Assembly: GCA_017983845.1 (NCBI GenBank)
Contig: JAGOAO010000006.1
Coordinates: 15,281-79,280 of the forward strand
Direction: 5' to 3'
Source: Sediminibacterium sp.
Lineage (GTDB): Bacteria; Bacteroidota; Bacteroidia; Chitinophagales; Chitinophagaceae
DNA length: 64,000 nucleotides
The position numbers were made by a program, and so were the translations under genes. Every line of letters starts with the position of its first letter. Within the stretch, counting starts at the first letter, position 1. Shown piece after piece: positions 34,006-35,631 of this stretch. The notes under the pieces were generated by a model. The model made no database searches. It saw nothing but the letters and a program-made list of their open reading frames with translations, and was not told the DNA's origin.

Positions 34006-35631
34006 ATGATTAGTGCAAGAAACGTCACATTGGCTTATGGTAAAAGAGTCCTTTTTGATGAAGTAAATATAAGCTTCGTCAAGGGGAATTGTTATGGTAT
34101 TATTGGAGCCAATGGTGCTGGTAAGTCTACCTTTTTAAAAATATTAAGTGGTGAAATTGAACCAAATAAAGGTTCAGTTGAAATTACCCCGGGTGAGCGT
34201 ATGTCCTTCTTGAAGCAAAATCAGTTTGAATTTGATGAGCAAACGGTATTGAATACAGTAATGCAAGGCCATAAACGTATGTGGGAAGTGATGCATGAGA
34301 AAGATGCTTTGTATGCCAAGGAAGACTTTACAGAAGCTGATGGCTTAAGAGCAGGTGAATTAGAAGGAGAATTTGGTGAAATGGGTGGATATGAAGCGGA
34401 GAGCAATGCAGCGAGTTTATTAAGCGATTTGGGCGTAAAGGAAGACATGCATCAGTCTTTAATGAAAGACATCCCAAGTAACTTTAAGTTGCGTGTATTG
34501 TTAGCGCAATCCTTATTCGGTAATCCAGATATCTTATTATTGGATGAGCCTACCAACGGTTTGGATATCGAAACCATTGGCTGGTTGGAAAACTTTTTAG
34601 CAGACTACCAGAACATTGTCTTGGTGGTGAGTCACGATCGTCACTTCTTGGATACGGTTTGTACCCATGTATCTGACGTGGATCGTTCAAAGATCAAAAC
34701 CTTTACGGGTAACTATTCCTTCTGGTATGAGTCTTCTCAATTGATGGCACGTCAGATGAATGATAAGAATAAAAAGAACGAAGAAAAGCGTGCTGCATTA
34801 TTGGATTTCATTGCACGTTTCTCTGCAAATGCAAGTAAGAGTAAACAAGCTACTTCTCGTAAAAAAGCATTGGAAAAATTAACCATCGAAGAGATTGAGC
34901 CATCGAATAGAAAGTACCCTGGTATTATCTTTCAGCCATTGCGTGAAGTGGGCAATCAAATATTAAATGTAGAGAAATTACAAAAATCTGTAGATGGTCG
35001 TGTCTTGTTTAAAGACGTTACTTTCTCTGTAAGTAAAAATGATAAAATAGCTTTTTTAAGTAAGGATCCATTGGCCATTACTTATTTCTTTGACATCATC
35101 AACAGTGTGGGTCAAGCAGATAGTGGAGGCTTTGAATGGGGTACTACCATTACAAAAGCGTATTTACCTATGGAGCATAACGAAGAATTTACACAACCAT
35201 TGACTTTAATGGATTGGTTAAGACAATTCGTTCCTTCGCATGTTACGGATGCAGATGAGCCTTTTATCCGTGGATTCTTAGGTAAGATGTTGTTTAGTGG
35301 TGACGATGTAATGAAAAAGTCAAATGTATTGAGTGGAGGAGAAAAAGTACGTTGCATGGTAAGTAAAATGATGTTGCAAAACCCCAATGTGGTGGTCTTG
35401 GATCAGCCTACGAACCACTTAGACTTGGAAAGTATCCAAAGTTTTAACGAAGGTTGTCAGAATTTCCCTGGAATTGTGTTAATGACCTCTCATGACCACA
35501 CGTTTATGCAAACTGTGGCAAATAGAGTAATTGAGCTAACACCAAAAGGAATTATTGACCGATTGATGACTTTTGATGAGTATATGGAAGATAAAAGAGT
35601 CCAAGAATTAAGAACCGAGTATTATTCTTAG
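34006..35631 (+). CDS. ABC-F family ribosome-associated ATPase (YbiT-like) with one degenerate nucleotide site
   Basis: Two ABC domains and no TM segment; [38 protein letters not shown] and TSHDHTF. Confidence 0.92.

What the first reader, a model, noticed from the sequence alone, without database searches (positions are those of the whole stretch)
34006..35631. ABC-F with one composite ATP site completely degenerate (natural half-EQ enzyme)
Seen: the NBD1 Walker A (GANGAGKS), NBD1 Walker B (LLLDEPT) and NBD2 signature (LSGGE, 35329-35343) are intact. The NBD1 signature reads IPSNF (34471-34485) instead of LSGGQ, the NBD2 Walker A reads LSKDPLAIT (35056-35082) with no GKS/T, and the NBD2 Walker B reads VVLDQPT (CAG at 35404-35406, Q467). 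Known: each ABC site is built from Walker A/B of one NBD plus the signature of the other, so all three changes fall in the same site; E-to-Q is the laboratory mutation that blocks hydrolysis and traps ABC-Fs on ribosomes; characterised ABC-Fs (EttA, Uup, YbiT, ARE-ABCFs) have two canonical sites. Inference: concerted loss of one site, not random decay, giving an asymmetric single-site translation factor with a possibly different ribosome cycle or a sensor role.
Basis: partly seen in the sequence, partly recalled or inferred. Interest (0 to 1): 0.72.

Follow-up and report, generated by a model that had tools for sequence, protein, structure and literature searches.

The report
One-ATP-site YkpA/YbiT ribosome factor
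This gene encodes the Bacteroidota version of the ribosome-helper ATPase YkpA/YbiT, in which one of the two ATP pockets was dismantled long ago in a clade that also includes the Bacillus subtilis protein, so the gene is an ordinary member of a large and little-remarked one-pocket family.

Summary
The 541-aa ORF (34006-35631, +) is a full-length ABC-F protein. It is 57% identical to B. subtilis YkpA and about 42% identical to E. coli YbiT.

The losses are not strain decay. Within the genus, dN/dS is about 0.02, and Gln467 is coded by CAG in 15 orthologues and CAA in 15.

The feature is not special to this organism. All 69 P-loop-less sequences in an 88-row tree form one clade (SH-aLRT 100). That clade covers all sampled Bacteroidia orders, Ignavibacteriales, Paenibacillus and B. 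subtilis YkpA itself.

In 90 non-redundant members, every catalytic residue of site 1 is invariant. The site-2 counterparts are among the most variable columns. The NBD2 catalytic Glu was replaced at least four separate times. The Gln form is one late change, confined to a Sediminibacterium/Lacibacter subclade.

E. coli YbiT's NBD1 signature (VAPGW) is already published as strongly degenerate. The "half-EQ" analogy is also misleading, because a site without a P-loop probably binds no ATP to trap.

Verdict: a real, selected one-site ABC-F, and a new member of a known family. I found no paper that states the P-loop loss of the YkpA clade.

The parts
34006..35631 (+). ykpA/ybiT-type ABC-F gene, 541 aa (P0001), stop codon included
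   Evidence: ORF found. Pfam hits: ABC_tran x2 plus ABC_tran_Xtn (PtIM linker). E. coli YbiT 9njf_Y at E 1e-147. 57% identical to B. subtilis YkpA over the full length.
34105..34131 (+). NBD1 Walker A G34-ANGAGKS-T42 (site 1, intact)
   Evidence: G34, N36, G37, G39 and K40 are invariant in 90 non-redundant clade members.
34216..34218 (+). NBD1 Q-loop Gln71 (site 1, intact)
   Evidence: Invariant, with 0 changes on the 101-row tree.
34471..34485 (+). NBD1 signature position I156-PSN-F160 (site 2 face, degenerate)
   Evidence: Aligns with VAPGW of E. coli YbiT. Position 157 is at the 91st entropy percentile, with 14 state changes on the tree.
34531..34548 (+). NBD1 Walker B I176-LLLD-E181 with the catalytic Glu (site 1, intact)
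   Evidence: D180 and E181 are invariant.
34633..34635 (+). NBD1 H-loop His210 (site 1, intact)
   Evidence: Invariant.
34726..34965 (+). Inter-domain linker / P-site tRNA interaction motif (about residues 241-320)
   Evidence: Pfam PF12848 matches residues 224-305. The AF2 model shows helices 237-252, 258-276 and 282-290. This is the region with the lowest dN/dS, about 0.001.
34990..34992 (+). NBD2 A-loop position Val329 (aromatic residue lost)
   Evidence: Tyr in 10 of 11 canonical YbiT sequences. It is the most variable column in the P-loop-less clade (H 3.38, 100th percentile).
35059..35085 (+). Relic of the NBD2 Walker A, S352-KDPLAIT-Y360, which aligns with GTNGVGKST of E. coli YbiT
   Evidence: DNA read; alignment. 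The Lys position is V/T/L/M/I (95th entropy percentile). In the AF2 model the strand-to-helix loop is 3 residues, against 5 in NBD1.
35170..35172 (+). NBD2 Q-loop position Met389 (Gln lost)
   Evidence: Gln in 11 of 11 canonical sequences, but N/L/K/V in the clade.
35329..35343 (+). NBD2 signature L442-SGG-E446 (completes site 1, intact)
   Evidence: S443, G444, G445 and E446 are invariant in 90 members.
35392..35424 (+). NBD2 Walker B V463-VLD-Q467 (Gln in place of the catalytic Glu) and D-loop P468-TNHL-D473
   Evidence: CAG at 35404-35406. Gln is coded by CAG in 15 and CAA in 15 of 30 genus orthologues. The D-loop is invariant.
35491..35493 (+). NBD2 H-loop His496 (kept here; lost at least 4 times elsewhere in the clade)

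Best explanation
The gene encodes the Bacteroidota orthologue of YkpA/YbiT, a soluble ABC-F translation factor. By homology, it binds the ribosomal E site in its closed form. [quoted passage not shown]

It works with a single catalytic ATP site. Site 1 is built from the NBD1 Walker A/B, Q-loop and H-loop plus the NBD2 LSGGE signature and D-loop.

Site 2 is built from the NBD2 Walker A/B, Q-loop and A-loop plus the NBD1 signature. It was dismantled in steps:
1. The signature was lost in the ancestor of all YbiT-type proteins.
2. The P-loop glycines and the Q-loop Gln were lost once, in the ancestor of a YkpA-type clade shared by Bacillota and Bacteroidota.
3. The P-loop Lys was lost a little later.
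4. Afterwards the idle catalytic Glu and H-loop His drifted or were replaced independently in several lineages. Gln467 is the form fixed in the Sediminibacterium/Lacibacter subclade.

NBD2 is kept under strong selection because it supplies half of site 1 and ribosome contacts.

Shown here: the motif states, their phylogenetic distribution, the selection on the gene and the intact fold.

Inferred: that site 2 holds no nucleotide; that closure and release run on one ATP, so there is no two-site cooperativity; and the ribosomal role, taken from E. coli and B. subtilis work.
For: Identity:
- The best solved relative is E. coli YbiT, E 1e-147, colinear over 2-532.
- The closest structure to the AF2 model (pLDDT 89.5; NBD2 blocks 83-96) is ribosome-bound EQ2-YbiT 9njf_Y, TM 0.72.
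- The protein is 57% identical to B. subtilis YkpA.
- Orthologues from P. gingivalis and Capnocytophaga with the same P-loop relic are labelled YbiT in Murina 2019, supplementary file 9.

Conservation and selection:
- An orthologue is present in 69 of 75 sampled same-class genomes, and never alongside a canonical YbiT.
- Genus dN/dS is 0.02. Gln467 is coded by CAG in 15 and CAA in 15 orthologues.

One origin:
- The 69 P-loop-less rows form one clade (SH-aLRT 100, stem length 0.35, one state change). The clade includes B. subtilis YkpA.

Site asymmetry:
- In 90 non-redundant members all site-1 catalytic residues are invariant.
- The site-2 counterparts sit at the 90th-100th entropy percentile.
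- On a 101-row tree the NBD2 Glu and His were each lost at least 4 times, against 0 changes in NBD1.
- The E-to-Q rows form one subclade (17 rows, support 99).

Function by homology:
- A B. subtilis ykpA deletion stalls ribosomes on polyLys, polyArg and polyGlu (PMC11381351).
- YkpA(EQ2) raises trans-translation (bioRxiv 10.64898/2026.09.23.753862).
- E. coli YbiT-EQ2 has been solved on the 70S ribosome.
Against: - There is no biochemical evidence on any member for nucleotide occupancy of site 2. The claim rests on sequence.
- Most clade members (65 of 90) keep the NBD2 catalytic Glu. The Walker B Asp (86 of 90) and His496 (79 of 90) are also largely kept. This could mean a residual role at that interface.
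- Ala357 and Thr/Ser359 in the P-loop relic are fairly conserved.
- Basal members keep Lys-Ser/Thr (GPNDLAKST), so some may still bind nucleotide weakly.
- The AF2 model carries no ligands, and I could not inspect its coordinates.
Confidence: 0.8

Rival explanations
1. Site 2 still binds ATP tightly without hydrolysing it. It would act as a permanent nucleotide 'glue' for the NBD dimer, as in the degenerate sites of heterodimeric ABC exporters and CFTR. On this reading Gln467 stabilises the bound ATP, which is the reader's half-EQ idea.
For: The Walker B Asp466 and the D-loop are conserved. Thr/Ser359 (the position of the Mg-coordinating Ser/Thr) is kept in 83 of 90 members, and His496 in 79 of 90. 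E. coli YbiT-EQ2 does hold ATP at its signature-degenerate site 2.
Against: The P-loop Lys, all three glycines, the A-loop aromatic residue and the Q-loop Gln are replaced. These positions are among the most variable in the protein. The strand-to-helix loop that would cradle the phosphates is modelled 2 residues shorter than in NBD1. From general knowledge, the degenerate sites of ABC exporters keep their Walker A. The catalytic position takes S, T, N, D, G or H in other lineages, which is not expected if it held a bound ATP.
Confidence: 0.1
2. Site 2 has been rebuilt as a binding pocket for another ligand or partner, giving the factor a sensor role. Candidates would be a different nucleotide, an alarmone or a ribosomal element.
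For: NBD2 as a whole is under strong purifying selection (dN/dS 0.03). Ala357, Phe361 and Pro388 are conserved near the relic. In E. coli YbiT, movements of the NBD1 signature subdomain are coupled to the presence of bL33.
Against: The relic sequence differs widely between orders: [32 protein letters not shown] and GRNELAVT. A conserved ligand site would not vary like this. No new invariant polar residue appears in the pocket.
Confidence: 0.06
3. The gene is a decaying or inactive copy, either strain-specific erosion or an assembly error.
For: NBD2 has somewhat higher column entropy than NBD1 (1.34 against 1.01). One same-genus genome (G312) carries a copy with 19 in-frame stops. [quoted passage not shown]
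Against: dN/dS is 0.02. The frame is intact in about 160 orthologues. The same state occurs across a phylum and in B. subtilis. A ykpA deletion has a translation phenotype.
Confidence: 0.02

Closest known systems
Bacillus subtilis YkpA (YbiT subfamily ABC-F)
   Same: 57% identical over the full length and in the same P-loop-less clade. It shares the degenerate NBD1 signature (DLGGSE), a P-loop relic without Lys (GRNELAVTT), the lost Q-loop Gln (Lys) and an intact site 1. Genetic evidence links it to translation of charged stretches.
   Different: YkpA keeps the NBD2 catalytic Glu (LDEPT) and the first Gly of the P-loop. The window protein has Gln467 and Ser352.
Escherichia coli YbiT (PDB 9njf, 9nlf and others)
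   Same: Same subfamily and architecture (arm, PtIM, tandem NBDs). It is the best solved relative by sequence and by fold. Its NBD1 signature is already degenerate (VAPGW), and the authors regard site 2 as of uncertain competence.
   Different: E. coli YbiT keeps a canonical NBD2 Walker A (GTNGVGKST), Q-loop Gln, A-loop Tyr and catalytic Glu. It binds ATP at both sites in the EQ2 structures. It lies outside the P-loop-less clade. Identity is about 42%.
Degenerate nucleotide-binding sites of heterodimeric ABC exporters and CFTR (review PMC7756269, seen only as a search hit)
   Same: One composite site is catalytically dead because of concerted changes in the Walker B Glu, the H-loop and the partner signature. 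The other site does the work.
   Different: From general knowledge, those sites keep the Walker A and hold ATP. Here the P-loop itself is gone, so the site is probably empty. The protein is also soluble and acts on ribosomes.
Clostridioides difficile CD2068
   Same: Reported as up to 67% identical to YkpA (PMC8144104), so it probably belongs to the same YkpA-type group.
   Different: It was described as a multidrug efflux ATPase (PMC5577244), a reading that fits poorly with a soluble ABC-F. I did not examine its motifs here.

Membership tests
ABC-F family (soluble tandem-NBD translation ATPases) | Two ABC nucleotide-binding domains in one chain, with no transmembrane domain | tested here: met
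   Pfam ABC_tran gives 2 stretches and no other domain. The AF2 model shows two NBD folds.
ABC-F family (soluble tandem-NBD translation ATPases) | Inter-domain helical linker (PtIM / ABC_tran_Xtn) | tested here: met
   PF12848 at E 1.4e-21, residues 224-305. The helices are modelled with lower confidence in the 260-300 blocks (pLDDT 65-82).
ABC-F family (soluble tandem-NBD translation ATPases) | Binds the ribosomal E site in an ATP-dependent way | not testable with these tools
   Inferred only, from E. coli YbiT structures and B. subtilis genetics.
YbiT subfamily (Murina et al. 2019) | Groups with YbiT rather than EttA, Uup, YheS, YdiF or ARE clades | tested here: met
   The best NCBIfam, PDB and Foldseek hits are all YbiT. 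The protein is nested in the YbiT clade, separated from the outgroup rows with support 99. Orthologues are labelled YbiT in Murina's supplement.
YbiT subfamily (Murina et al. 2019) | Reaches the NCBIfam NF011646 equivalog cut-off (762 bits) | tested here: not met
   613.7 bits. Among the 14 control genomes only 1 passes the cut-off, although the family 'rings' in B. subtilis and B. thetaiotaomicron. The model therefore appears tuned to the enterobacterial form.
YkpA-type P-loop-less clade within YbiT | NBD2 Walker A without G-x4-GK[ST], NBD2 Q-loop Gln lost, NBD1 signature degenerate, site 1 intact | tested here: met
   Motif tables. Monophyly with SH-aLRT 100 and one state change.
Classical 'degenerate-site' ABC proteins (site binds ATP but does not hydrolyse) | Walker A retained in the degenerate site | tested here: not met
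   SKDPLAITY replaces GxNGxGKST.
BdAF1 (Bacteroidetes-specific ABC-F of Murina et al.) | Sequence similarity to BdAF1 representatives | tested here: not met
   The BdAF1 examples (B. thetaiotaomicron NP_810948.1 and others) are a different protein with canonical motifs. Bacteroides genomes list both BdAF1 and YbiT.

The most novel reading that the evidence does not exclude
The whole YkpA-type clade, comprising Bacteroidota, many Bacillota (B. subtilis included) and relatives, may run the complete ABC-F ribosome cycle on one ATP. Site 2 would be empty, converted into a fixed protein-protein latch. That would make these natural single-site ABC-F enzymes without two-site cooperativity. Lineage-specific replacements of the idle catalytic Glu (Gln here, Ser/Thr/Asn in Bacteroidales, Asp in Hymenobacter and Dyadobacter) would tune the strength of that latch and so the dwell time on the ribosome. 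I found no paper stating this.
Probability: 0.45. Interest if true: 0.6.

Novelty: new member of a known kind. Interest (0 to 1): 0.4.

Why it matters
Work on ABC-F factors usually assumes two working ATP sites, and "EQ2" double mutants are the standard tool for trapping them on ribosomes.

The data here show that a very large natural clade of the YbiT/YkpA subfamily has only one credible ATP site. The clade includes the B. subtilis model protein and the orthologues of gut Bacteroides, Prevotellaceae and Porphyromonas. The second site shows every sign of released constraint.

This gives a ready natural experiment in tractable laboratory organisms. It can address how much of the ABC-F cycle (closure, ribosome binding, release) needs the second ATP. 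It also bears on how YkpA(EQ2) results should be read.

For this particular window the gene is ordinary. The interest lies in the clade, not the locus.

Tried and rejected
1. Synteny with the ribosomal-protein genes rpmB and rpmG, which lie just downstream, and a possible link to the YbiT-bL33 coupling. tblastn of L28, L33 and TsaD against 29 orthologous loci with 1.5 kb flanks found them only in the window's own locus. The adjacency is therefore not conserved, and I rejected it as functional evidence.

2. Equating the family with Murina's Bacteroidetes-only subfamily BdAF1. That is a different protein.

3. dN/dS on the phylum-wide set. Only 2 pairs had dS below 1.2, and both were canonical YbiT pairs. 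I repeated the analysis with same-genus genomes. Only 9 pairs had dS below 1, and the comparisons of the window gene with its nearest relatives have dS above 1. The ratios are therefore approximate.

4. The 50%-representative library search gave mostly fragments and frameshifted chimeras among the top hits. I used it only for a few full-length outgroups.

5. Reading B. subtilis and B. thetaiotaomicron copies from the control genomes of the genome search. No loci are returned for controls. I instead recovered real B. subtilis sequences by searching with a remembered approximation of YkpA. The conclusions rest on the database sequences, not on my recollection.

7. Promoter and terminator scan. 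The counts were no better than in shuffled sequence.

8. Literature searches for an explicit description of the P-loop loss. None was found. [quoted passage not shown] 1999, which I could not read.

Full report
**Observation**

The window holds an uninterrupted ORF at 34006-35631 on the + strand, encoding 541 aa.

| Element | Residues | Coordinates |
|---|---|---|
| NBD1 Walker A | G34-ANGAGKS-T42 | 34105-34131 |
| NBD1 Walker B | LLLDE181 | 34531-34548 (I176-E181) |
| NBD1 signature position | I156-PSN-F160 | 34471-34485 |
| NBD2 Walker A position | L351-SKDPLAI-T359 | 35056-35082 (DNA read) |
| NBD2 signature | L442-SGG-E446 | 35329-35343 |
| NBD2 Walker B | VVLDQ467 | CAG at 35404-35406 |

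The colinear alignment with E. coli YbiT (PDB 9njf_Y, E 1e-147, residues 2-532) shows that GTNGVGKST is replaced residue for residue by SKDPLAITY.

The NBD2 Q-loop Gln is Met389. The NBD2 A-loop aromatic residue is Val329.

**What the protein is**

- Pfam finds two ABC_tran domains and the ABC-F linker domain PF12848.
- The best NCBIfam model is the YbiT-type NF011646. The score is 613.7 bits, below its 762-bit cut-off.
- The best solved relatives, by sequence and by fold, are the ribosome-bound E. coli EQ2-YbiT structures.
- An AlphaFold2 model built on 44 orthologues is confident (mean pLDDT 89.5), with NBD2 blocks at 83-96.
- In that model NBD2 is a complete ABC fold. The loop between the first strand and the 'P-loop helix' is 3 residues (352-354), against 5 in NBD1 (35-39).
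- The protein is 57% identical over its full length to B. subtilis YkpA. It is about 42% identical to E. coli YbiT.
- The genome has two other ABC-F genes, one YdiF/YheS-like and one Uup-like. Both carry two GK[ST] P-loops.

**The feature is not strain-specific**

In a sample of 301 genomes of the phylum, 69 of the 75 genomes of the same class have an orthologue at 54-84% identity. Four genomes of other classes instead have a 40%-identical canonical YbiT. No genome has both.

All 45 orthologues extracted at 54-84% identity lack G-x4-GK[ST] in NBD2. So do 29 same-genus orthologues and 80 loci from named genomes. The named genomes include:

- Sediminibacterium, Lacibacter, Pinibacter, Hanamia and Ferruginibacter;
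- Dyadobacter, Hymenobacter and Algoriphagus;
- Mucilaginibacter;
- Flavobacterium and Chryseobacterium;
- Bacteroides, Phocaeicola, Parabacteroides, Prevotellaceae and Porphyromonadaceae;
- Ignavibacteriales;
- Paenibacillus.

Real B. subtilis sequences recovered from the protein database read GRNELAVTT at the P-loop, DLGGSE at the NBD1 signature and Lys at the Q-loop position. They keep LDEPT at Walker B.

**Evolutionary history**

On an 88-row maximum-likelihood tree, the 69 P-loop-less sequences form one clade. Support is SH-aLRT 100, the stem length is 0.35, and one change of state is needed. The clade is nested within YbiT-type proteins. Its neighbours are a canonical sequence (P0126) and then the E. 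coli YbiT group.

Basal members keep the Lys but have lost the inner glycines. Examples are Ignavibacteriales and some other classes (GPNDLAKST), and Paenibacillus (GPNTLPKT). The Bacteroidia and B. subtilis have lost the Lys too.

The E-to-Q rows form a single subclade of 17 rows (support 99). It corresponds to Sediminibacterium, Lacibacter and relatives. Neighbouring Chitinophagaceae (Pinibacter, Hanamia, Ferruginibacter) keep Glu.

Elsewhere the same position varies:

- Ser, Thr or Asn in Bacteroidales;
- Asp in Hymenobacter, Dyadobacter and Telluribacter;
- Gly or His in scattered lineages.

On a 101-row tree the NBD2 catalytic Glu was lost at least 4 times and the NBD2 H-loop His at least 4 times. 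The NBD1 Lys, Gln, Glu and His and the NBD2 signature Ser show no change at all.

**Selection**

Among same-genus orthologues, 9 pairs have dS between 0.05 and 1. Their median dN/dS is:

| Region | Median dN/dS |
|---|---|
| Whole protein | 0.018 |
| NBD1 | 0.013 |
| Linker (PtIM) | about 0 |
| NBD2 | 0.032 |

Gln467 is coded by CAG in 15 and CAA in 15 of 30 genus sequences. The residue is therefore maintained through synonymous turnover.

I then examined 90 non-redundant (<85% identical) members of the P-loop-less clade.

- Every catalytic residue of site 1 is invariant: G34, N36, G37, G39, K40, Q71, D180, E181, H210, S443, G444, G445 and E446. The NBD2 D-loop is also invariant.
- The site-2 counterparts are among the most variable columns of the protein:

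| Site-2 position | Entropy percentile |
|---|---|
| A-loop position 329 | 100th |
| Lys position 358 | 95th |
| Q-loop position 389 | 91st |
| Signature position 157 | 91st |
| Gly position 355 | 90th |

This contrast is the main argument that site 2 neither hydrolyses ATP nor, most probably, binds it. NBD2 is retained because it forms half of site 1.

**Mechanism: what is shown and what is inferred**

Shown here: one intact and one dismantled composite site, an intact fold, strong selection and a single ancient origin.

Inferred from homologues:

- The protein binds the ribosomal E site in its closed form and acts on the P-site tRNA and peptidyl-transferase centre (E. coli YbiT structures).
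- It helps translation of charged stretches. A B. subtilis ykpA deletion stalls on polyLys, polyArg and polyGlu.
- An ATPase-dead form stalls ribosomes. YkpA(EQ2) raises trans-translation.

Further inference:

- Closure and release are driven by the single ATP at site 1.
- The site-2 interface serves as a nucleotide-free contact.
- Gln467 is a replacement in an idle position, not an ATP trap.

**Comparison with the literature**

This is not so.

- The E. coli YbiT NBD1 signature VAPGW is described as strongly degenerate. It is tied to non-hydrolytic conformations and bL33 occupancy (bioRxiv 10.1101/2023.06.15.543498).
- Murina et al. 2019 classify the Bacteroidetes orthologues as YbiT and do not comment on motifs. 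The paper contains 'degenerate' 0 times and 'Walker' once.
- The B. subtilis YkpA papers do not mention the missing P-loop.
[quoted passage not shown] 1999, which I could not read.
- I found no paper that states the P-loop loss. The library lacks most subscription journals, so this absence is weak evidence.
- Earlier notes of this scan report the same pattern in at least 66 genomes. They include a follow-up on Clostridia. These were leads that my tree and the B. subtilis sequences agree with.

**Verdict**

It overstates the uniqueness of the locus and misreads the role of Gln467.

The gene is a new member of a known family. The family-wide one-site character is the interesting and apparently undescribed point, and it is best tested in B. 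subtilis.

**Limits**

- No biochemistry was possible.
- Many sequences come from metagenome bins.
- The trees used a quick search with the LG+G4 model.
- The dN/dS estimates rest on few unsaturated pairs.

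Noticed in passing
window 35766-36222: rpmB (bL28, 35766-36002) and rpmG (bL33, 36040-36222) lie 134 nt downstream of the ABC-F gene, followed by ftsY (36493-37458). E. coli YbiT conformations are reported to be coupled to bL33 occupancy. However, the adjacency is absent from 29 orthologous loci with 1.5 kb flanks, so it looks coincidental.
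   Followed up: yes
G312:C1:317364-318767 (same-genus genome): One genome of the same genus carries a copy of this gene with 19 in-frame stops (7 TGA, 4 TAG, 8 TAA) at 66% identity over residues 1-462. It is apparently a pseudogene, in contrast to the strong constraint seen elsewhere.
   Followed up: no
G000:C30:160033-161769 (L003/L004): The genome's Uup-like ABC-F reads ARNGVGKST at its NBD1 Walker A, with Ala for the first P-loop Gly. The other motifs I scanned (second Walker A, both signatures, both Walker B) are canonical. The genome has only three ABC-F genes and no EttA.
   Followed up: partly
L042 (G013:C21:15484-17097): An orthologue from a genome labelled 'same phylum, other class' nests inside the clade of Sphingobacteriales-like sequences (with L029 and Mucilaginibacter, support 99). 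This could reflect gene transfer or a classification or binning problem.
   Followed up: no
L135, L155, L154 (genome contigs): Records titled Paenibacillus and Culicoidibacterales carry P-loop-less YkpA-type genes that group with B. subtilis YkpA. The clade therefore spans Bacillota as well as Bacteroidota. C. difficile CD2068, published as a multidrug efflux ATPase, is said to be 67% identical to YkpA and may be misassigned.
   Followed up: partly
window 31665-33962: Upstream genes are an FtsX/MacB-type ABC permease (31665-32912) and tsaD (32943-33962, GTG start). tsaD ends 43 nt before the ABC-F start, so co-transcription is possible.
   Followed up: no
window 36433-36462: A strong terminator-like hairpin (12-pair stem, then a T-run) lies between rpmG and ftsY. 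About 210 nt between rpmG and this hairpin were not examined for a small ORF.
   Followed up: no
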